Positions 4,088 through 50,768 of a stretch of DNA of 64,000 nucleotides are shown here, piece after piece. The DNA comes from a virus (lineage: Duplodnaviria; Heunggongvirae; Uroviricota; Caudoviricetes). The stretch's first letter is position 1, and every line of letters begins with the position of its first letter. The notes below the pieces were generated by a model. It searched no databases, was not told the DNA's origin, and worked only from the letters and a program-made list of their open reading frames with translations. Location of the stretch: the IMG/VR virus record IMGVR_UViG_2579778660_000001; one strand, 5' to 3'. Both the position numbers and the translations under genes were made by a program.

Positions 4088-4697
4088 GAATAATTATGTT
4101 CTTCTTAATTATGATGAGTTAAACGAAAAGGGGCTGGCAAAACTCGTCAAAGAAATCAGCAAAGGTGGTTACAAGATAGCGAGGGTGATCCCTGCAAGTA
4201 ATGGCAGGAAGAAAGATGGGATCATGACGCGCACGTTTACCCTTATTGGTCTTGATGAACAGACAATGGAAGTTCAGGTTAACGATACCGGTGATATATC
4301 TGGGATCAAACTGAATGGTAAAACAGTACCGTTCAAGCCAGTAAAAACAATGTCGGCTTTGGGGCAATCTCTTGCGGCTTTATTTAATCGCGGAGCAACT
4401 TCTTTCCAGAAGTCATTAGCTCGAAAACTTGCTCGTGCAGCAAAAAATATTGATGACGAAAATAAGAAGCGGCAGGGAGTTAAATCCAACGCTCAGAAAT
4501 TAGCTGAAGCGAAAGAATCACGTGATGCACTCCGTGAAGATATCGCTAATGCTAACGACAAACTGTCTAAACTCCAGAGCAAGTCAGACAAAGTAATGCA
4601 AGATACGGGTAACGTTAAAGCTGCCTTGTCTCAGGAAGTAGCTAAGACACGTGCTCTTAAAGAAGAAATCGCGCGCCTGGAGGATGAGCATGATTAA
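4077..4697 (+). CDS. Hdf-like coiled-coil virion protein
   Basis: AAGGAG RBS 6 nt before ATG at 4077 (track start 4062 is less likely); Lys/Glu-rich coiled-coil C-terminus; sits immediately 5' of the DarA-like gene. Confidence 0.35.
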   Translation: MSNKNNYVLLNYDELNEKGLAKLVKEISKGGYKIARVIPASNGRKKDGIMTRTFTLIGLDEQTMEVQVNDTGDISGIKLNGKTVPFKPVKTMSALGQSLAALFNRGATSFQKSLARKLARAAKNIDDENKKRQGVKSNAQKLAEAKESRDALREDIANANDKLSKLQSKSDKVMQDTGNVKAALSQEVAKTRALKEEIARLEDEHD

Positions 4698-6615
4698 CAA
4701 TCCTTTACGAATTAATATTCAGTCTACTTTTGCTGATACGATCCCCGGCTATATGCCAGGTCGCTGGTCTTCAGAAGAATTAAGCGAAGATGACCTGATT
4801 TTTGAGGCGGCGACCTTAGAAGATATTGAGCTTGCCTATATGGGCAATGAAATTCTGGTTGTGTCTGACGAAGCTATGTTTGAGTCCATAACTACAACCA
4901 GAATTCGGTTAGCTCAAACAATGCGAGCTTTCGTCCGTGCGCTGAATCGTGGCCTGAATGGTACGAATATTATGGCAGGGACTGATGAAGCCGGGACCGA
5001 TGAAAATGGACGTAATTGTATTGGTGGTGCGATTATCGGTCGTGTACGTCGGGTAGCTAATATCCCTGTTTTGACCGCGCAGATACCGCTTACTGACGGG
5101 CAGAGTACAAGCATAATTTTCCACTCTCCAACAGCTGACGGGGCAAAAATAAAGAGTAACGACGAGCTTGTTGCATTTCAGTTTTTACTTAATAAGCGTA
5201 ACGTAACTCACGTTGTCGCCCCGATTGGCGGGAGAGATGTTTCTTTAAGCCAGGTATGCCAGGCGCTATCTAATTTGATTGAGCGTAACAGCGAAAAATT
5301 TAAGAAAGCAAAAGAGCGCCAGGACAAAATGAAGGCAGATATTGAGAGTTATCTCAATGAAGCAGATAAACTGGCAGAAGAACGGTCAATAACAATTGAT
5401 CAGGTGGACGTTGCGCAACGTGGGCTGACTGAAAAGCGTGCTGCTCTTACGGAGATGCAAAAAAAACTTGATGCCCAGAAAGCCATCAACGAGGAATTAC
5501 AAGAAAAACGCGATAAATTGTTGTCTGCTAAAGGTGAAAAAACGAAGGAGCGAGCGTTTAGTGACCAGCTGCGACATGTAAAACATAATCTTGCCATTGA
5601 CGGAAAAACAGTGCTGGATAATGGCGCTGAAGTTAATTATGTCACGTCCGGCAGTGACAATTTCGTTACGATAGTAGCACCTGAAGGTAAATTCAGTATT
5701 GATGCCAGTGCTGTCAAAGGAGGCAGTTTGGCAGATGCTGCAACCAAATTACTTAAAGCCTACCGAGAGCATAACGCAGATAAATATAAAGTTGATGTGT
5801 TACCAGGCCAGCAGGAAGACTCCGAACCACCACAGACAGCCCCCGAGACGAACCCAGTATCACAACCAGAGAGCCAAGATGTAGGTAAATACCACTATGC
5901 ACTTCAATCTCGCCCGGCTGGTGTTGGTGCTGTGCCGGATGGGAATAAAGCCGTGCTTGATCGTCCTGACCAGGCTGATCAGTATTACGGATATGCTCGT
6001 CACGGTATCATTACGTATGACCGTAAACTGACAGATGAAGAAGTCAGCCAGTACGAGTTGCTCTATCTTCCTGATGAAGATGAGCTGAAAGATTTTGCAG
6101 GCCAATTGGTTGTGTCCAGCATGTCTAAACATATTGATGGCTATGTGGACCTGTTTGGCAGTGACCTGAAAACATTCAAGGCGCAAGTGAAAATTCTTTT
6201 CCGCAAAGCGTTTCCAAACGTGGCGTATCCACTTGGTGATGGGGAGAACCTTTTCATTATGGACGTGTATAACGCCCTTCAAAATTATTCAAGCGAAGTA
6301 AAAACAGAGCATGTGGTTGAGCCAGAATCACAACCACAACCAGCACCAGAACAGGAGCCGGAGCCAGAAGAAGCGGGTGAATCAGCAAGTGAAGCTGATC
6401 AGGAGGCAGATAAAGCGCTGGAGTACCTGAAATCCGTGCCGGAGCAGTTTACATCCCGCGATCTGACGGTCATCAGTACTGAACTTGATCATGTACAGGA
6501 AGCAGCAAATGCTCTAATCAGTGCAGGTCGATACGACGAGAACGAAGCCACTGTGGGTGCAGCAGTTGACTACCTGATCAACATTCTGGCTGAAATTCAG
6601 CAGGGAGGTGCTTAA
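4690..6615 (+). CDS. DarA-like internal head protein (defence against restriction), 641 aa
   Basis: GGAGGA RBS with ATG at 4690 overlapping the upstream stop; size close to P1 DarA; coiled-coil and Pro/Glu-rich acidic linker; operon context with a DarB-like gene elsewhere in the window. Confidence 0.45.
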   Translation: MINNPLRINIQSTFADTIPGYMPGRWSSEELSEDDLIFEAATLEDIELAYMGNEILVVSDEAMFESITTTRIRLAQTMRAFVRALNRGLNGTNIMAGTDEAGTDENGRNCIGGAIIGRVRRVANIPVLTAQIPLTDGQSTSIIFHSPTADGAKIKSNDELVAFQFLLNKRNVTHVVAPIGGRDVSLSQVCQALSNLIERNSEKFKKAKERQDKMKADIESYLNEADKLAEERSITIDQVDVAQRGLTEKRAALTEMQKKLDAQKAINEELQEKRDKLLSAKGEKTKERAFSDQLRHVKHNLAIDGKTVLDNGAEVNYVTSGSDNFVTIVAPEGKFSIDASAVKGGSLADAATKLLKAYREHNADKYKVDVLPGQQEDSEPPQTAPETNPVSQPESQDVGKYHYALQSRPAGVGAVPDGNKAVLDRPDQADQYYGYARHGIITYDRKLTDEEVSQYELLYLPDEDELKDFAGQLVVSSMSKHIDGYVDLFGSDLKTFKAQVKILFRKAFPNVAYPLGDGENLFIMDVYNALQNYSSEVKTEHVVEPESQPQPAPEQEPEPEEAGESASEADQEADKALEYLKSVPEQFTSRDLTVISTELDHVQEAANALISAGRYDENEATVGAAVDYLINILAEIQQGGA

Positions 6616-6983
6616 TGACCATCTCTGTTTTAGACCGCCTGAAATTAGGTAAAGAGCTATCAGATCTAATGCAGGCGCAGAAAACTGCGCCAGTATTGCA
6701 ACGCGTCACCATTGGTAAGCAGATTGTTGATGTGATGCTGAAATTGGGCCTGGGGACTGCCGCGCAACCGGCAGCGGAACCGCAACAACAGACTGATCCT
6801 GTTGTAGATGAAGTCCCTAAGATAGTGACTGACTTCCTGGGCGGTGTGTTCACAAAGTCCACACAAATGGAATTTATTGATGCGCTGCGTGGGATCTCAA
6901 ACTATGTTGGCGAGTTCCTTACGTTGGAGCAGGCTAAAGTACAGACCATAAGCTGGGTGAAAGCCAACGGTTATGCCGGGTAA
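6615..6983 (+). CDS. DdrA-like small protein, 122 aa
   Basis: TAATG overlap with the DarA-like gene; size matches the P1 ddrA position; followed by a terminator. Confidence 0.35.
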   Translation: MTISVLDRLKLGKELSDLMQAQKTAPVLQRVTIGKQIVDVMLKLGLGTAAQPAAEPQQQTDPVVDEVPKIVTDFLGGVFTKSTQMEFIDALRGISNYVGEFLTLEQAKVQTISWVKANGYAG

Positions 6984-6986
6984 TCA

Positions 6987-7012
6987 AAAGGGGGTGAAAT
7001 CCCCCTTTCACT
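6987..7012 (+). terminator. intrinsic terminator-like hairpin (aaaggggg-tgaaat-ccccctttc)
   Basis: GC stem followed by a T-rich stretch directly after the stop at 6983. Confidence 0.5.
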
Positions 7013-7065
7013 TCTCTGTTCTCACATAAATCACACTCTTTTTACACTCACAGCTTTCTCTATAG

Positions 7066-8463
7066 TTGGAGTGTATTTTGAACAAATCAGTTACTTCTGC
7101 GCTTTCCGAGGCCGCAGATATTAACAGCGTCATTGCTCTGGTTTCTTCATTAGAGAGGAAAGAAACACGCATGGGGCGAAGTAGCTACGTAGTCACCAGC
7201 AAAGGCGCAGAGGTAAAGACGGCTTTTAAGGTCGTTGATGCCAGCAGTCTAATCATTTCGAACAACCTTGACGGTACGATTAACCCGGCCTTCCCGGAAG
7301 AACTCCAACCACGAGATCGTACCCGGCTATCCAGCAAACTCCAGGTTAACCGTATTGCCTCCGATTTACGCCCGGCACAATTAACGGATTCCGGTATGAG
7401 CAGCCACGGAGCGCCGATAGTTGGTGCGGACAACGTTGTTGAATCCGGCAACGGAAGGAGTATGGGTATCTGGCGTGCCTATGAGCAAGGACAGGCGGAT
7501 GAGTATCGCCAGTACCTGATCGACCATGCGAAAGAGTTTGGTCTGAATCCTGACGAAATTTCGCAAATGTCTATGCCCGTACTGGTGCGAGAAAGACTCA
7601 CAGATGTAGACCGCGCTCAATTTGCCCGCGATTCAAACATTAGCGATCTGCAAGAGATGGCAGCAAGTGAAAAAGCGTATGCGGATGCGCAATTTCTCAC
7701 TGAGAGCGTCATGGCGCTATTTAATCCTTCAGATGATGGAAATCTGCTGGCGCGGTCCAATGATGCGTTTATTCGTGCGTTTTTGCGCGAAATTGGCGAT
7801 ACAGCGACGGCAGGCTTGCTTACTGCCGATGGGCGTCCCACGAAACAGCTTATCGATCGCATCCAGAATGCAATTTTTGCCAAAGCGTACAAGGATGAAA
7901 GGCTTGTTCGGCTGGTGTCGGAAGAGCCAGATCCGGAAATGCGTAATATCCTGACCGCATTAAATACGGCAGCCAGCGATTTTGCGCAAATGCAGTCGCT
8001 GTCTGGCGACGCTCACCATGACGCAGTAACAGGCTTAGTGGACGGTATAGAGCAGGTTAATGGCCTGGATACACAGGCGATAGCAGCACTCCAGGAAGCA
8101 ATCAATCTTGTACGTGAAGCCAAAGACAACGGTCAGGCCGTTGAAGAAGTGATCGCCCAAAGGGGGTTATTCGGTGACAGTACACCGGAAGCTGAGGCAT
8201 TGGCGCTATTCATCGTAGCAAATAATCGCAGTGCGAAGCGTATGGGGGCAGCATTCAAAAAAATGGCGCAAAAAATCAACGACGAGCTGACTCATAAACA
8301 ACAGGCATTGGGCGATATGTTCGGCGGTGGCGATGTTGATCTGCGTCGTATTTTGTCTGCTGTATCTGATGAAATTGAGGGTGAATTTGGCGAAGGGAAA
8401 GGTCTGAACTTTGCTATGTTTGAAAATTCTACAGTTCTAAATAATTGCCGTATGGGAAACTAA
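7066..8463 (+). CDS. hypothetical virion/morphogenesis-associated protein, 465 aa
   Basis: Long ORF with TTG start (uncertain) and no recognisable motif; lies between the Dar-like operon and the portal-like gene. Confidence 0.45.
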   Translation: MECILNKSVTSALSEAADINSVIALVSSLERKETRMGRSSYVVTSKGAEVKTAFKVVDASSLIISNNLDGTINPAFPEELQPRDRTRLSSKLQVNRIASDLRPAQLTDSGMSSHGAPIVGADNVVESGNGRSMGIWRAYEQGQADEYRQYLIDHAKEFGLNPDEISQMSMPVLVRERLTDVDRAQFARDSNISDLQEMAASEKAYADAQFLTESVMALFNPSDDGNLLARSNDAFIRAFLREIGDTATAGLLTADGRPTKQLIDRIQNAIFAKAYKDERLVRLVSEEPDPEMRNILTALNTAASDFAQMQSLSGDAHHDAVTGLVDGIEQVNGLDTQAIAALQEAINLVREAKDNGQAVEEVIAQRGLFGDSTPEAEALALFIVANNRSAKRMGAAFKKMAQKINDELTHKQQALGDMFGGGDVDLRRILSAVSDEIEGEFGEGKGLNFAMFENSTVLNNCRMGN

Positions 8464-12385: not shown

Positions 12386-12524
12386 CCTGTGTGCCTACAA
12401 AACATCCCAATGATCGGCAAATGCTCGCTCGATGATTTGTATTAGAAAATTAATTTGCTGTTTCTAAATCGGAATGTATGATCTGCATCATCGACTGAAG
12501 TCATCCATTGCTGAAATTTTTAGT

Positions 12525-28951: not shown

Positions 28952-29059
28952 CATTAGATATTTAGTATTAATTTTCTAATACAATCATCTTTTTGCCAGT
29001 CTATACAGTTTTAACATTCTCATTATCATCCCCTCGGTCATTTCCTGCCCGGGGGATTA

Positions 29060-33427: not shown

Positions 33428-33600
33428 GACAAATCTATGTCGAATAACAGAGTGAGTAAAGGATCGAACTATGATTTTTTTGTCATCAACTTTAGAAAAC
33501 CAACCGTTGAAACCACACTTCGCAAATTAAAGACCATGAAGGCAACGTGTTACTGTCCATCATCAATCTATGATGGATTACAAAAAAAATCGGCATTTTA

Positions 33601-37773: not shown

Positions 37774-37804
37774 AAGCCCGCCTGGTTGAGCGGGCTTCTT
37801 TTCA
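37774..37804 (+). terminator. terminator hairpin (gaagcccgc-ctggttga-gcgggcttc + TTTT) between convergent operons
   Basis: 9-bp GC stem with T run. Confidence 0.65.
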
Positions 37805-38182
37805 AATATTGGGACCAAATAATTCACGTAGTTTTTCCGCTACTGAAGATACGGGGATTTCACCAGTTGCGGCCCCCACCGCTAGTTCCACCAGCACGGG
37901 AGAATCATATACCTGTATGCCGTTACGGCGTAGAAATAGCAGCGCACTGTTTAGCGCGGTACGCTTATTGGCATCATTGAATATATGCCCTCTCGCCGTA
38001 GCTACCAGGTAGGTGGCGGAGACTTCGAAAAGGTCGGTGATCTCTTCGTAGGCAACTCTGGCCTGAACTCTACCGATAATGGCCTCTGCCCTACCCGGAT
38101 CTGACATTCCCGGCAGGCCGCCGTAGCGGCTTATATTCGCATCATGAAGCGCAATAAGTTCTTCCGGTGATATATGCCTCAT
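37802..38182 (-). CDS. doc: Doc toxin (death on curing; Fic-fold kinase), 126 aa
   Basis: Near-identical to P1 Doc as recalled ([39 protein letters not shown]...); overlaps the phd stop. Confidence 0.95.
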
Positions 38183-38403
38183 TATCGGTTAACCAGTTCC
38201 TTGTTGGTGGAGTCCAGGGTGTCAAACAGGGATGCAAATTCAGCATCCAGCGCCGCTTTTTTGTAGGCTTCAAAAGTAGCCTTGCTGACAATTACTGCTG
38301 GCTCTCGGCCTCTGCGGGTGATTTCAACCTCTTCCCCGGCTTCAACATTGTTGAGCACTTCAGAAAGGTTGCCGCGCGCGGTACGGAAGTTAATGGATTG
38401 CAT
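38182..38403 (-). CDS. phd: Phd antitoxin (prevent host death), 73 aa
   Basis: Near-identical to P1 Phd ([49 protein letters not shown]...); true start is the ATG at 38403 (track start is 2 codons upstream). Confidence 0.95.
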
Positions 38404-38475: not shown

Positions 38476-38865
38476 TTAAATCACCGGACAATCGTCAAAT
38501 TCCCCACTTCGGACATCATTGATGACATGAGTGATCACACCAAAAACAGCATTACTCCCCGTGCATCCATCGTCATCCACTGGTAACGCCTCTTTCCTCC
38601 CGGTGCTTAAATCCTCCAGGTGCTGGCGCGGATACTTCCTGTATCTCTTTATGCGATATTCACCCTCCATAGCGCACACAAGCAGAGAACCATCAACCGG
38701 AGTAAGCGAGGAATCAACCACCAGCAAAGCACCCTGCAATATTCCCTCACGGTGATGGCTATCAGCTGCCCGCATGAAGTAGGTTGCTGATGGATGCCTG
38801 ATTAGTTGCTGATCAAGAGAAATTCGGCTTTCAACATAATCCGCCGCAGGAGAAGGGAAGCCCAT
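38476..38865 (-). CDS. humD: HumD (UmuD'-like S24 peptidase-fold mutagenesis protein), 129 aa
   Basis: GFPSPAADYVE...HPSATYF... aligns with UmuD; humD-phd-doc order as in P1. Confidence 0.8.
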   Translation of the reverse strand: MGFPSPAADYVESRISLDQQLIRHPSATYFMRAADSHHREGILQGALLVVDSSLTPVDGSLLVCAMEGEYRIKRYRKYPRQHLEDLSTGRKEALPVDDDGCTGSNAVFGVITHVINDVRSGEFDDCPVI

Positions 38866-47112: not shown

Positions 47113-47417
47113 TTTGTTTTCTCCTGTCTGAACATCACTATCATCAGGTCGCCTTTTGTCGCTATCCTCGCTGTTGTGCCTGGTTCAATGCTGCCAAGTT
47201 CAAATGCGTCATAGAACGCTTCTAATGCCTTCTGGCGTAGTTCCTGTTTGCGCCGTTTTTTCCACTGTTTCAGGAAAATGGAACCCAGCCATCGCCATGT
47301 ACGGGACATGATGAAAAACCAACCGAGAAGTGCCAGACCGGTATTCAGGAGCGTATCGATCGTTATTGTCGTGTCGATATTCACTGGCTGCTTCCGTTGC
47401 GAATCTGTTCCGCCCAT
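47109..47417 (-). CDS. small membrane protein, 102 aa
   Basis: Hydrophobic helix; overlaps neighbours. Confidence 0.35.
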   Translation of the reverse strand: MGGTDSQRKQPVNIDTTITIDTLLNTGLALLGWFFIMSRTWRWLGSIFLKQWKKRRKQELRQKALEAFYDAFELGSIEPGTTARIATKGDLMIVMFRQEKTK

Positions 47418-48313
47418 TCTTCAAGGGATTTCTCCGCATATTCACCGGACAGGCCATCAAGCGGATGCGGTTCATTAGCCAACTCTTCTTTCGCTGACAA
47501 AATCATGCGTGTAACGTCGAAAACTTCACGCAAAGACTTATTGATAAATCCGTGATTGAACGCAGCAGCAAGACGGCTTGCGGTGTAGTTAATCCCCTCG
47601 TTGCGTGCCTCCGCACGTACTTCAGCCAGGAAAGCGTCGGTTGCTGGGGTGTCGATATTAGGCAGAAGCGCATAATCGCAAATCGTATCGATCGCAGGAT
47701 CACAACAGTCATCCTCGTTGCGTGGTCGTTCGCCAACCTTCGTTGACGATTGCATGATGATTCCCCAGCAAATACTATCGACCTCTTCGCTCCATCCATC
47801 GCAAGCATCACCGCGATAGTCGTCGATTGCAGCCTCAGCCGATTCGATAGCTTCCTCAGCAGTTTTGTGCCATTCGAAATTATGCTCAGAGCCATATGAG
47901 AAATATGAATGTCCCGCCTTCAGCCCCGCATTCTCCGCCGCCAGCGCCGCGCAATTACCCTCCAGCTCTGCAATGCGCTGTTTTGCGGCATCAAGTTCAA
48001 TCGATAATTTTTCCAACTGCTCTTTATGCTTCTTGTATTCCTGATATGCGTGCCAGGACTGACCTTTGCGCACACTATCAGTAATATCAGTAATCTGTTC
48101 TGGTGTTAGCGTGGTCAGTGGCTGTGCTGGGAAAATCAGCACTTTCCCGGAATCCCAATCAAAACCAGCGTGAATTGACTGAACCTCAACTGAAGGTGTT
48201 GAACCAATGCTGCCAGGCGAATGAACAACGATCGTTACATCCATATCGCGACGATGGCTGTGGTTGTTGGACAAAATACGATTCACCAACTCAGAAAATT
48301 TGGAAAATTTCAT
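47381..48313 (-). CDS. Ea22-like protein, about 310 aa
   Basis: Start re-assigned to MKFSKFS (ATGA overlap with the upstream stop); C-terminal domain paralogous to 49117-49626 (TPATD.FL.EV..EAR.EG...). Confidence 0.5.
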
Positions 48314-48633
48314 GCTGATTCCCTTTGATCTTCCTGGATAATGTTGTTGCAATCTTTCACGCACTCGTTGCAGATGAAAGCGTTGTCCCCAGCAATTAAC
48401 TTTTTAACGGTGTGCTGGGATTTGTTGCAGAAGCTGCAATAAAGCGTTGGACTGGCTGATACGGATGGTGCGCCAGATGTCAGCCGCGCGATGTCGTTCT
48501 TGCGACGCAATATCACACGGCTGCACTCAACCAGCATCTCCGGGGATATACCCTCCTCCGTGGCGAGCGCCTCCAGACGTTCGAGCAAGCGAAATACTTT
48601 TTCCTGGGTGATTGCATAATGCGATGTGGTCAT
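48310..48633 (-). CDS. small protein with ClpX-type N-terminal zinc-binding domain (C4 zinc finger), 107 aa
   Basis: [27 protein letters not shown] parallels the ClpX ZBD [27 protein letters not shown] (recalled); start re-assigned to MTTSHY (RBS from the upstream IKGE codons). Confidence 0.55.
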
Positions 48634-48634
48634 C

Positions 48635-49120
48635 TCACTCTCCTTTGATGCGAATGCCTGTTGCAATGCTGTTTATGATGCTGTCAGTGCATGGGGTAGA
48701 AAGCTGGGCATCTCCAGCAATTTTCATGACATCAACATCTGCATATCGAATACCGAGGTGTATCAGACCGGCTATACCTGACTTAAGCCGAGCATTTTCC
48801 ATAAACAGATCCTTTGCCCGCTGTTTTTCTGCCTCAAGCTCAACGCGCAACTTCCCTACCGTTAGCGCAATATCCTCGTTCTCCTGGTCGCGGCGTTTGA
48901 TGTACTGCTGGTTTCTTTCCCGTTCATCCAGTAGTGCCAGCACGGTTTCTGGTCCGGCCAGAAATTTGAAGGCGTTGAGCGCATCAATATCCACACCGTA
49001 ATCTTTAAGTTCCTGTTCACTTAACAAATCATCATCAGCTGGCAACATTAACAGGCGTTCCATTGCTGGAATTGCACGTTCCGCCGCCTCACGCAGTGCC
49101 TGATAATCAATCTTGCTCAT
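48635..49120 (-). CDS. Ead/Ea22-like coiled-coil protein, 161 aa, ending ...GIRIKGE
   Basis: Paralogue of 43611-44513. Confidence 0.45.
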
Positions 49121-49626
49121 TGGATGACTCCTTTACGAAGCTGTTCGGCGATATCTTCGAGAACGCCATCAGAGAATGAGCGGTCAAAATCGCCTTCCGG
49201 CGCATTAGCCATAAACTCAGTAGAGGTAAGAATCATCCGGGCAATATCCGCGGCGTTCTTCGCAGTATCATCAATAAAACCAGCTACCCAGGCAGCCAGC
49301 ATTCTGTTCGCCACAAAGTAAGCGCCCTCCTTGCGTGCTTCAGTCTTCACTTCATCCAGGAAAGTGTCGGTCGCAGGAGTAGTTTTTTGTGGTGATAGGG
49401 CGATACGAATTGTTTCAAGAGCTGGATCTATTTCCACTGTTGGCACCTTGATAAAACCAAGCTGCACGCCATTCATAATGAACGTGCGGCGATCCTCACA
49501 TATCGCCTTCAGTCTCGCATTCTCCGCAGCCAGCGCCGCGCGCTCTTTCTCAAGTCGGGAAATTTCCGTTACATACTCAGCGTTACGCTCTGCCAGTTGT
49601 GCGGGCGTTAAACCTTCAGACTTCAT
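49117..49626 (-). CDS. Ea22-like C-terminal-domain protein, 169 aa
   Basis: Paralogue of the C-terminus of 47381-48313. Confidence 0.45.
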   Translation of the reverse strand: MKSEGLTPAQLAERNAEYVTEISRLEKERAALAAENARLKAICEDRRTFIMNGVQLGFIKVPTVEIDPALETIRIALSPQKTTPATDTFLDEVKTEARKEGAYFVANRMLAAWVAGFIDDTAKNAADIARMILTSTEFMANAPEGDFDRSFSDGVLEDIAEQLRKGVIQ

Positions 49627-50735: not shown

Positions 50736-50768
50736 TGTGTTAGAAAATCAATTTTGATTTTCTAACAT
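50736..50768. promoter_or_regulatory. palindromic double operator (GTTAGAAAATCAA-tt-TTGATTTTCTAAC) in the divergent promoter region between ref and the leftward early operon
   Basis: Perfect 13-bp inverted arms; P1 ref is known to be repressor-controlled. Confidence 0.65.

What the first reader, a model, noticed from the sequence alone, without database searches (positions are those of the whole stretch)
48310..48633. Small early protein carrying a ClpX-type zinc-binding domain: a candidate ClpXP decoy or adaptor
The 107-aa protein contains [27 protein letters not shown], which matches the C4 zinc-binding N-domain of ClpX ([27 protein letters not shown] as I recall it). It has no AAA+ module. 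The ClpX ZBD dimerises and docks adaptors and substrates, so a free-standing copy in a repressor-controlled early operon could heterodimerise with host ClpX or compete for ZBD ligands. That would redirect or inhibit ClpXP, for example to stabilise phage replication or antitoxin proteins. I am not aware of this as a described P1-family function.
Basis: partly seen in the sequence, partly recalled or inferred. Interest (0 to 1): 0.7.

Follow-up and report, generated by a model that had tools for sequence, protein, structure and literature searches.

The report
Phage-plasmid copy of ClpX docking domain
A small gene on this E. coli phage-plasmid encodes a real copy of the zinc-binding docking domain of the host protein-unfolding machine ClpX, fused to a short helical module and lacking the motor; it may divert the factors that normally dock on ClpX, but nobody has tested this.

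Summary
Window 48310-48633 (minus strand) encodes a 107-aa protein. Residues 64-106 are a true ClpX-type C4 zinc-binding domain (ZBD): Pfam PF06689 scores 63 bits against a cutoff of 27, the domain is 65% identical to E. coli ClpX residues 11-50, and the predicted fold matches solved ZBD structures at 1.8 A. There is no AAA+ module.

Residues 1-53 form a family-specific helical hairpin that is found only with this ZBD.

The window is a D6-like (P1-family) phage-plasmid, and the gene is the homologue of D6 orf93 (phrog_6797, unknown function). Relatives occur in 195 of 5,426 complete E. coli genomes, on phage-plasmids and P2-like prophages. RefSeq already names them "ClpX C4-type zinc finger protein"; older records wrongly say "carboxylate--amine ligase".

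No function is published in the corpus searched. The best inference is ZBD mimicry, in which the protein titrates ligands that dock on ClpX's N-domain. Purified free ZBD does this in vitro, and the F16/I46 hydrophobic patch is retained.

Three cautions apply:
- Within the family the ZBD surface evolves faster than the N-domain.
- ZBD proteins without an AAA+ module are abundant in bacteria.
- Frameshifted alleles exist.

Interest is moderate.

The parts
48310..48633 (-). Complete CDS of the 107-aa ZBD protein (D6 orf93 homologue; phrog_6797)
   Evidence: A 99.4% identical gene in plasmid NZ_CP021537 is annotated 'ClpX C4-type zinc finger protein'.
48313..48444 (-). Region encoding the ClpX-type C4 zinc-binding domain (residues 64-107). 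The zinc ligands C66, C69, C88 and C91 correspond to ClpX C14, C17, C36 and C39.
   Evidence: Pfam PF06689 at 63.4 bits; PDB phmmer; Foldseek to 2ds5 and 1ovx; tblastn with ClpX residues 1-70 matches window 48313-48444.
48475..48633 (-). Region encoding the family-specific N-terminal helical hairpin (residues 1-53; helices 10-26 and 31-52).
   Evidence: AF2 model. The module is conserved in distant relatives. A profile search finds it only with the ZBD or in truncated alleles. It has no Pfam, PDB or Ea22 relationship.
48445..48474 (-). Region encoding the low-confidence Ser/Pro-rich linker (residues 54-63, [10 protein letters not shown]). This is the recombination junction seen in chimeric alleles.
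   Evidence: pLDDT is about 60 for residues 51-60. Chimeras P0022 and P0024 switch sequence at 'SGAPSVS'.
48634..48646 (-). Ribosome-binding site (AAAGGAGAG) and the stop codon of the upstream Ead/Ea22-like gene, 1 nt before the ATG.
   Evidence: Read directly from the sequence.
48635..49120 (-). Upstream neighbour, an Ead/Ea22-like protein of 161 aa, tightly coupled to the ZBD gene.
   Evidence: Pfam PF13935 at E=6.4e-33. The same adjacency occurs in D6, other plasmids and a chromosomal element.
47381..48313 (-). Downstream neighbour, an Ea22-like coiled-coil protein of 310 aa. Its ATG overlaps the ZBD gene's stop codon (ATGA).
   Evidence: Homologues are annotated ead/Ea22-like.
50740..50765 (.). 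Perfect 26-bp palindrome (TTAGAAAATCAAAATTGATTTTCTAA) between the ref-like gene and the start of the accessory operon. It is a candidate repressor operator.
   Evidence: 0 expected by chance. The half-site occurs 5 times in the window against 0.46 expected, with shared flanks at 12442 and 28968. Function is inferred, not shown.

Best explanation
The gene encodes a two-module accessory protein of temperate enterobacterial elements. The modules are a conserved N-terminal helical hairpin and a C-terminal bona fide ClpX-type zinc-binding domain, joined by a flexible linker.

The most likely mechanism is mimicry of the ClpX N-domain. The free ZBD presents the same hydrophobic docking groove as ClpX's own ZBD. 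It would therefore compete for proteins that must dock there before ClpXP can act on them. These include the adaptors SspB and RssB, and ZBD-dependent substrates of the lambda-O and MuA class. The result would be selective stabilisation of ZBD-dependent ClpXP clients, while ZBD-independent degradation (plain ssrA tags) is spared. The N-terminal hairpin would add oligomerisation or avidity, or target specificity.

Shown here: domain identity, predicted fold, conservation of the zinc ligands and the hydrophobic patch, absence of a motor, and that the gene is real and widespread.

Inferred: zinc binding, dimerisation, any binding to ClpX ligands or to ClpX itself, the timing of expression, and the benefit to the element.
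For: Domain identity:
- Pfam PF06689 scores 63.4 bits against a cutoff of 27.
- The best PDB hits are the E. coli ClpX ZBD.
- Foldseek gives rmsd 1.8 A and 68% identity to 2ds5, 2ds6 and the ZBD-XB complex 2ds8.

Conserved residues:
- Residues invariant across 19 close and 5 distant family members include all four zinc Cys, L12, F16, I35, V40 and C43; I28 and G30 are invariant in the close family with one conservative change each among the distant members. I46 and I47 stay hydrophobic in 18 of 19 and in all 19 close members, and in all distant ones.
- PMC7804408 states that the hydrophobic region including F16 and I46 is the site for lambda-O, SspB, RssB and trigger factor, and that the ZBD is required for lambda-O degradation.

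Biochemical precedent:
- PMC7226468 (section 3.1) shows that purified ZBD added in trans inhibits RssB-mediated sigma-S degradation by wild-type ClpXP.

Similarity to host ClpX:
- Distant relatives share only 27-46% identity with the window protein in the N-domain. Their ZBDs are nevertheless 65-87% identical to E. coli ClpX, closer than to each other. That pattern fits a constraint to stay like the host ZBD.

Precedent for the strategy:
- Lambda RexB blocks ClpX- and ClpA-dependent proteolysis of lambda-O, Phd and MazE (PMC11077077).
- T4 PinA and T7 gp4.5 block Lon (PMC10286901).

Context:
- The same window carries phd-doc; the review PMC10286901 lists the primary paper by title, and P1 Phd is a ClpXP substrate.
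- ZBD-only proteins recur in unrelated phages: PP9W2, Cr30 and phage G.
Against: - No experiment or complex model links this protein to ClpX, SspB, RssB or any substrate.
- Within the close family the ZBD core evolves about twice as fast at non-synonymous sites as the N-domain (pooled pN/pS 0.56 against 0.30). Some comparisons across ZBD types give omega above 1. Some alleles fall to 45-60% identity with ClpX.
- The close family replaces ClpX P31 with D or E and varies positions 32, 41, 42 and 45, near where the SspB tail is reported to pair (the location is recalled from memory).
- At least 136 of the top 150 ZBD-bearing cluster representatives are too short to hold an AAA+ module, and many carry 2-6 tandem ZBDs. 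The domain may therefore be a generic peptide-binding or dimerisation module.
- Frameshifted or truncated alleles occur, so the gene is dispensable.
- The role of the better-conserved N-domain is unexplained by a pure decoy model.
- Whether Phd degradation needs the ZBD is not known to me.
Confidence: 0.4

Rival explanations
1. The function is independent of ClpXP. The ZBD serves only as a small zinc-stabilised dimerisation or peptide-binding module. The conserved N-hairpin carries the real activity, for example regulating a phage or host partner in the lysis-lysogeny or accessory programme together with the adjacent Ead/Ea22-like proteins.
For: - The N-domain is the more strongly conserved half (pN/pS 0.30 against 0.56).
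- Thousands of ZBD proteins without an AAA+ module exist with diverse architectures.
- Ea22-like genes adjoin the gene in D6-like plasmids, in a chromosomal element and in most P2-like loci.
- Natural chimeras join Ea22-type N-termini to the ZBD (P0022, P0024, P0001, P0004).
- Lambda Ea22 is an early gene that favours lysogeny (PMC7093339, PMC10834534).
Against: - The ZBD is 65-87% identical to the host's own ClpX ZBD and keeps the ligand patch, which is more than a generic zinc ribbon would need.
- Ea22 adjacency is not universal (L009, L017-L019, L021).
- The N-domain has no detectable relationship to Ea22 proteins.
- No alternative partner domain was found for the N-domain.
Confidence: 0.28
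2. The protein is a ClpX-tethered adaptor or a poison subunit. Its ZBD heterodimerises with a ClpX N-domain. This would either deliver a target bound by the N-hairpin to ClpXP for degradation, or disrupt the three ZBD dimers of the hexamer.
For: - The ClpX ZBD is a dimerisation domain (rapid ZBD dimerisation is reported in PMC7226468, and the solved structures are dimers).
- Identity to host ClpX is high, including the C-terminal helix core V40, C43, I46 and I47.
- A second conserved module that could bind cargo is present.
Against: - Dimer-interface residues could not be mapped with the tools available.
- L42 is replaced by V, D or A and residues 41-45 vary.
- ClpX ZBDs are described as constitutive dimers (recalled from Wojtyra et al. 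2003), so exchange with a free ZBD may be slow.
Confidence: 0.14
3. The gene is a prophage-encoded exclusion or defence gene. It uses the same decoy chemistry, but the lysogen benefits by blocking superinfecting phages that need ClpX's N-domain, such as Mu-like transposable phages.
For: - In P2-like prophages every subfamily sits in the variable slot between gpA and the portal gene. From memory, this is the old/tin locus and a known hotspot for anti-phage genes (Rousset et al. 2022).
- The gene is found only in temperate elements.
Against: - PADLOC gives no hit.
- In those loci the gene is co-oriented with the early replication operon rather than standing as an obvious independently expressed moron.
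- In the window it lies in an operon behind an operator-like palindrome, which suggests repression in the lysogen.
- There are no phenotypic data.
Confidence: 0.1
4. The ORF is a decaying remnant of a captured clpX 5' end with no function.
For: Frameshifted and truncated alleles exist.
Against: - There are 12 intact alleles under purifying selection.
- The gene is fused to a conserved non-ClpX N-domain.
- It has its own Shine-Dalgarno sequence and translational coupling.
- It has no DNA-level similarity to host clpX, because only 195 of 5,426 genomes are hit.
- It occurs in at least four kinds of mobile element.
Confidence: 0.02

Closest known systems
[quoted passage not shown]
   Same: - The C-x2-C-x18-C-x2-C zinc-ligand pattern is the same.
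- The window protein is 65% identical over ClpX residues 11-50, and relatives reach 87%.
- The predicted treble-clef fold superposes at 1.8 A.
- The hydrophobic patch residues F16, A29, I46 and I47 are conserved, and Y34 becomes F.
   Different: - It is free-standing, with no linker to an AAA+ ring, no AAA+ module and no ClpP-docking loop.
- The ZBD is C-terminal rather than N-terminal and is preceded by an unrelated helical hairpin.
- P31 is D or E, G18 is N or K, and L42 is V, D or A in the close family.
- It evolves quickly, whereas I would expect the host ZBD to be far more conserved (expectation from memory, not measured here).
Purified ClpX ZBD used in trans as a competitor (PMC7226468; from memory also Wojtyra 2003 and Thibault 2006)
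   Same: It is a motor-less ZBD polypeptide. The laboratory fragment inhibits RssB/sigma-S turnover by competing for the adaptor.
   Different: That is a laboratory fragment, whereas this is a natural gene carrying an extra conserved domain. Competition by this protein is untested.
Anti-adaptors IraD, IraM and IraP, and the prophage regulator AppY (sigma-S stabilisers)
   Same: These are small, horizontally acquired proteins that stabilise a ClpXP client by sequestering RssB. PMC7226468 proposes that the ZBD and IraD dock on overlapping RssB surfaces. AppY is prophage-encoded (PMC10057817).
   Different: There is no sequence or fold relationship. Those proteins bind the adaptor through unrelated folds, whereas this one would copy the protease's own docking domain.
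Phage-encoded inhibitors of host AAA+ proteases: lambda RexB (ClpXP/ClpAP), T4 PinA and T7 gp4.5 (Lon)
   Same: The proposed outcome is the same: protecting phage proteins or antitoxins from host proteolysis (PMC11077077, PMC10286901).
   Different: There is no homology (Pfam, PHROG and PADLOC). RexB is, from memory, a membrane protein of unknown mechanism. None of these proteins is a mimic of a protease domain.
Other ZBD proteins without an AAA+ module (phrog_12435 'protease', Pseudomonas phage PP9W2 65-aa 'Clp protease', Caulobacter phage Cr30, Bacillus phage G gp258, and multi-ZBD bacterial proteins)
   Same: They carry a stand-alone PF06689 domain without a motor, and all are uncharacterised.
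   Different: They lack the N-terminal hairpin that defines phrog_6797. Many are ZBD-only or tandem-ZBD proteins.

Membership tests
zf-C4_ClpX domain (Pfam PF06689) | Profile score above the curated gathering threshold | tested here: met
   63.4 bits against a cutoff of 27, E=1.8e-17, covering profile positions 2-39 of 39.
zf-C4_ClpX domain (Pfam PF06689) | Four zinc-ligand cysteines in CxxC...CxxC spacing, aligned with ClpX C14, C17, C36 and C39 | tested here: met
   C66, C69, C88 and C91 align with the ClpX ligands and are invariant in all 24 family members examined.
zf-C4_ClpX domain (Pfam PF06689) | Treble-clef fold like the solved ClpX ZBD | tested here: met
   The AF2 model has pLDDT 81-86 over the ZBD. 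Foldseek gives 2ds5, 2ds6, 2ds8 and 1ovx at probability 1.00, rmsd 1.8-2.0 A and 68% identity. This is a prediction, not an experiment.
zf-C4_ClpX domain (Pfam PF06689) | Zinc binding and constitutive dimerisation | not testable with these tools
   This needs metal analysis and SEC-MALS or cross-linking. No multimer prediction was available.
ClpX AAA+ unfoldase (NCBIfam NF003745 / TIGR00382) | Full-length equivalog score, with an AAA+ module carrying Walker motifs, pore loops and the ClpP-docking IGF loop | tested here: not met
   45.9 bits against a cutoff of 359, and 41.1 against 370.75. Only profile positions 5-47 are matched, and the protein is 107 aa long. It is not a ClpX.
phrog_6797 (phage protein family, unknown function) | Full-length profile match | tested here: met
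   E=2.5e-54, residues 1-106 matching profile positions 1-106 of 107.
ClpXP adaptors and anti-adaptors (SspB, RssB, IraD/M/P) | Homology to a known adaptor or anti-adaptor family | tested here: not met
   Pfam, NCBIfam and the PDB sequence search return only the ZBD.
ClpXP adaptors and anti-adaptors (SspB, RssB, IraD/M/P) | Physical binding to ClpX or RssB that changes client degradation | not testable with these tools
   This needs binding and degradation assays.
Known anti-phage defence proteins (PADLOC-DB) | Match to a defence-system model | tested here: not met
   0 families at E<=1.
Carboxylate-amine ligase (the name carried by D6, P88 and many GenBank records) | Match to any ligase or ATP-grasp/GCS2-type family | tested here: not met
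   Pfam or NCBIfam give no such hit. The name is a propagated misannotation, and current PGAP uses 'ClpX C4-type zinc finger protein'.
Ead/Ea22-like family (PF13935), the neighbouring genes | Profile or profile-profile similarity of the N-terminal module | tested here: not met
   Pfam gives no hit. hhalign probabilities are 0.1% and 1%.

The most novel reading that the evidence does not exclude
Temperate enterobacterial phages and phage-plasmids carry a natural molecular mimic of the ClpX N-domain. It would act as a decoy or anti-adaptor, sequestering SspB, RssB or lambda-O-class ligands, or capping ClpX's own ZBDs. This would selectively switch off the ZBD-dependent branch of ClpXP proteolysis. 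It would be the first protease-domain mimic described as a phage counter-measure. The fast-evolving ZBD surface would then reflect tuning to different clients or an arms race. The much larger, unstudied world of bacterial ZBD proteins without an AAA+ module could work the same way.
Probability: 0.3. Interest if true: 0.75.

Novelty: new variant of a known kind. Interest (0 to 1): 0.5.

Why it matters
ClpXP controls sigma-S, SOS and mutagenesis proteins, flagellar regulators, antitoxins such as P1 Phd, and phage replication and transposition proteins such as lambda-O and MuA. A mobile-element protein that copies only ClpX's docking domain would be a simple, selective way to rewire that network. 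It would add a new mechanistic class, domain mimicry, to the few known phage inhibitors of host AAA+ proteases.

The protein would also be a ready-made tool for separating ZBD-dependent from ZBD-independent ClpXP functions in vivo. It could give a first functional handle on thousands of uncharacterised ZBD proteins that lack an AAA+ module.

If the protein turns out not to touch ClpXP, the finding reduces to a correctly annotated domain in an accessory gene of unknown role.

Tried and rejected
1. **P1 C1 operator.** The consensus ATTGCTCTAATAAATTT with up to 3 mismatches gives no site in the window. The "repressor-controlled" claim therefore rests only on a different palindrome and half-site motif.
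2. **N-domain partners.** A profile search with the N-domain alone, looking for other fusion partners, returned only truncated or frameshifted alleles of the same gene.
3. **N-domain versus Ea22-like neighbours.** hhalign found no relationship.
4. **Weak profile hits.** Pfam hits Sp-DndD and DUF7836 (E>0.1) and the PHROG "antitoxin" hit (E=0.053) were treated as noise.
5. **PADLOC.** No hit.
6. **Literature.** Ten full-text searches found no paper on a stand-alone phage ZBD protein. The PLoS One motility paper that matched on terms was irrelevant.
7. **Primary ZBD papers not held.** Wojtyra 2003, Thibault 2006 (two papers) and the D6 genome paper could not be read. Statements about SspB-tail pairing with the strand around residues 29-35 and about constitutive dimerisation are therefore from memory. 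The other ZBD structure papers (Donaldson 2003, Park 2007) were not looked up.
8. **Recent capture from E. coli clpX.** Rejected, because blastn at "distant" sensitivity hits only 195 of 5,426 genomes, so it does not hit clpX itself.
9. **Toxin-antitoxin reading.** Rejected, because the neighbours vary between elements.
10. **Multimer prediction.** A heterodimer or homodimer model was not possible with the single-chain tool and its input restrictions.
Full report
**1. The observation**

The ORF lies on the minus strand from ATG 48633 to the TGA stop at 48312-48310. It encodes the 107-aa peptide [10 protein letters not shown]...[27 protein letters not shown]...QRESA.

An AAGGAG Shine-Dalgarno sequence precedes the ATG. 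The upstream gene's stop codon is one base away, and the gene's own stop overlaps the next gene's ATG (ATGA). The gene therefore sits in a translationally coupled minus-strand array.

The evidence for the domain is as follows:
- Pfam zf-C4_ClpX (PF06689) matches residues 65-101 at 63.4 bits against a gathering score of 27, with E=1.8e-17.
- phmmer against PDB sequences returns the E. coli ClpX ZBD first (1ovx E=9.8e-15; 2ds5).
- NCBIfam's ClpX equivalogs match only their first ~50 positions, at 46 bits against a cutoff of 359. The protein is therefore not a ClpX and has no AAA+ module.

**2. Anatomy**

An AF2 model built on 18 family sequences (mean pLDDT 79) shows three parts:
- a helical hairpin, with helices at residues 10-26 and 31-52;
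- a low-confidence Ser/Pro linker at residues 53-63;
- a ZBD at residues 64-106.

Foldseek superposes the ZBD on the crystal and NMR structures of the ClpX ZBD, including the SspB-tail complex 2ds8, at rmsd 1.8-2.0 A and 68% identity. The hairpin matches nothing in the PDB.

In literature numbering, each phage residue number is the ClpX number plus 52. Across 19 close and 5 distant family members, L12, C14, F16, C17, I35, C36, C39, V40 and C43 are invariant. I28 and G30 are invariant in the close family, with one conservative change each (V, A) among the distant members. A29, V33, F/Y34, I46 and I47 are conserved or conservatively replaced. The close family consistently has D or E at P31, N or K at G18, K at R25, and V, D or A at L42.

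**3. What the window is, and where the gene occurs**

The window is a D6-like (P1-family) E. coli phage-plasmid. The gene is the homologue of D6 orf93, at 79% identity.

It belongs to phrog_6797, a family of unknown function, with a full-length match at E=2.5e-54.

D6, P88 and many GenBank entries call it "carboxylate--amine ligase". No profile supports that name. Current PGAP calls it "ClpX C4-type zinc finger protein".

A DNA-level search finds it in 195 of 5,426 complete E. coli genomes. The matches split about evenly between plasmids (106 places) and chromosomes (100 places). The host clpX gene is not among the hits, so this is not a recent capture.

Full-length relatives occur in several settings:
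- Escherichia and Salmonella genomes;
- ~90-kb D6-like and ~108-kb phage-plasmids;
- a chromosomal element next to metG;
- P2-like prophages, where every subfamily occupies the variable slot between the replication gene gpA and the portal gene.

P1 itself lacks the gene.

Ead/Ea22-like genes are usually, but not always, immediate neighbours. Natural chimeras join Ea22-type N-termini to the ZBD at the linker. However, the N-hairpin is not related to Ea22 proteins.

**4. The N-terminal module**

Distant relatives (P0041, P0043, P0097, P0099, P0120, P0180) keep the same hairpin-linker-ZBD layout at only 27-46% N-domain identity.

A profile search with the hairpin alone found no other fusion partner. 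It returned only truncated or frameshifted alleles.

The hairpin is therefore a dedicated partner of this ZBD, and the gene is sometimes lost.

**5. Evolutionary pattern**

Among 12 intact alleles, pooled pN/pS is 0.30 for the N-domain and 0.56 for the ZBD core, at equal synonymous divergence. Several comparisons between ZBD "types" give omega of 1.1-2.7, but on small counts and with non-independent pairs.

Within the close family, the ZBD can fall to 42-50% identity while the N-domain stays at 74-81%. In contrast, the relatives with the most divergent N-domains have ZBDs that are 65-87% identical to E. coli ClpX, closer to ClpX than to each other.

In short, the zinc core and hydrophobic groove are fixed and the periphery is plastic. 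This fits a retained ClpX-like binding groove with a tunable surface. It also fits partial release from ClpX-like constraints. The data do not decide between these.

**6. Regulation**

The P1 C1 operator consensus is absent from the window.

A perfect 26-bp palindrome lies at 50740-50765, between the ref-like gene and the first gene of the accessory operon. Its half-site occurs five times in the window against 0.46 expected. Two of those sites share extended flanks.

From memory, P1 ref is C1-controlled through a bipartite operator. Repressor control of this operon is therefore a reasonable inference, not a result.

**7. Mechanism**

Published biochemistry supplies the key precedents:
- The ZBD is required for lambda-O degradation. 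The hydrophobic region containing F16 and I46 is the shared site for lambda-O, SspB, RssB and trigger factor (PMC7804408).
- Purified ZBD added in trans inhibits RssB-mediated sigma-S turnover by wild-type ClpXP, and the isolated ZBD dimerises (PMC7226468).

A naturally expressed ZBD that keeps that groove would be expected to compete for the same ligands.

Phages are already known to blunt host AAA+ proteases:
- lambda RexB blocks ClpX- and ClpA-dependent proteolysis of lambda-O, Phd and MazE (PMC11077077);
- T4 PinA and T7 gp4.5 block Lon (PMC10286901);
- prophage AppY and the Ira anti-adaptors stabilise sigma-S (PMC10057817).

The same window carries phd-doc and a humD-like gene, and P1 Phd is a ClpXP substrate (the primary paper appears by title in the reference list of the review PMC10286901). 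That link is circumstantial, because P1 has phd-doc without this gene.

I therefore put ZBD mimicry (a decoy or anti-adaptor) first at about 0.4. The alternatives are:
- a ClpXP-independent role centred on the hairpin, about 0.28;
- a heterodimerising adaptor or poison subunit, about 0.14;
- an exclusion function for the lysogen, about 0.1;
- a dead remnant, about 0.02.

**8. Comparison with what is known, and novelty**

The domain is a member of PF06689. The protein is not a ClpX. It is not homologous to any known adaptor, anti-adaptor, protease inhibitor or defence protein.

ZBD proteins without an AAA+ module are not rare. An exhaustive search gave 9,367 cluster representatives at E<=1e-3. 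Of the top 150, 136 are shorter than 350 aa, and many carry 2-6 tandem ZBDs. Unrelated phages also carry ZBD-only proteins: Pseudomonas phage PP9W2, Caulobacter phage Cr30 and Bacillus phage G.

Ten full-text searches found no functional study of any of them. The corpus is incomplete, however, and several primary ZBD papers could not be read.

The domain call itself is already in RefSeq. What would be new is the function: a protease-docking-domain mimic as a phage tool.

**9. Verdict**

The decoy/adaptor interpretation is plausible and has good biochemical precedent, but it is entirely untested.

Three findings temper it:
- the ZBD surface evolves quickly;
- the conserved hairpin is unexplained;
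- ZBD proteins without an AAA+ module are abundant.

Interest is moderate (0.5). The finding is best classed as a new variant of a known kind, namely phage modulators of host AAA+ proteases and stand-alone ZBD proteins.

Noticed in passing
window 50740-50765; also 12442-12453, 28968-28979, 33492-33503: A perfect 26-bp palindrome, TTAGAAAATCAAAATTGATTTTCTAA, lies between the ref-like gene and the accessory operon. Its half-site is enriched in the window (5 found against 0.46 expected). Two sites share the context GATGAT(T)TGTATTAGAAAATTAAT. These are probably D6-type C1 repressor operators, and the P1 operator consensus itself is absent.
   Followed up: partly
window 37802-38403 (minus strand) and 38476-38865 (minus strand): A phd-doc addiction module is present. 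Its Phd is 100% identical to the P1 Phd sequence as I recalled it, and it is followed by a 126-aa Doc. A humD (UmuD'-like) gene lies just upstream. Phd, and UmuD' through UmuD, are ClpXP clients in the literature. The element therefore carries potential beneficiaries of a ClpXP modulator, but P1 has the same genes without the ZBD gene.
   Followed up: partly
D6 locus L001 6001-6321; P88; many GenBank proteins (P0003, P0004, P0008, P0043 and others): The family is widely mislabelled 'carboxylate--amine ligase'. No ligase profile matches it. Newer PGAP records use 'ClpX C4-type zinc finger protein'.
   Followed up: yes
proteins P0022, P0024, P0001, P0004, P0008, P0017 (relatives of window 48310-48633 and 49117-49626): There are natural chimeras. 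In some, the ZBD is joined at the 'SGAPSVS' linker to an Ea22-type coiled-coil N-terminus (AAENAGLK...). In others, the first ~20 residues of the upstream Ea22-like gene (MKSEGLTPAQLAERNAE...) are fused onto the hairpin. This shows recurrent recombination within the gene array.
   Followed up: partly
loci L007/L008 6001-6168, L009 6001-6267; proteins P0208, P0210, P0211, P0214, P0215, P0217, P0219: Frameshifted or truncated alleles keep the hairpin but lose the ZBD. They lie in the P2-like gpA-to-portal slot, so the gene decays in some prophages.
   Followed up: partly
proteins P0038, P0040, P0045, P0053, P0061, P0074 and others: There is a large, apparently unstudied population of bacterial and metagenomic proteins made of 2-6 tandem ClpX-type ZBDs with no AAA+ module. 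Some alternate ZBDs with helical hairpin-like spacers (P0074).
   Followed up: no
window 47381-48313, 48635-49120, 49117-49626 (all minus strand): Three paralogous or mosaic Ead/Ea22-like genes flank the ZBD gene and share coiled-coil segments (AAENA(G/R)LKA). The 169-aa and 310-aa members fall below Pfam's Ead_Ea22 threshold, although homologues are annotated as Ea22-like.
   Followed up: partly
loci L002-L008 (P2-like prophages), about 4400-5950 or 6400-7700: A ParM/StbA-like actin ATPase and a StbB-like gene sit directly after gpA and before the ZBD gene in integrated P2-like prophages. This is an unexpected plasmid-partition cassette in the P2 variable slot.
   Followed up: no
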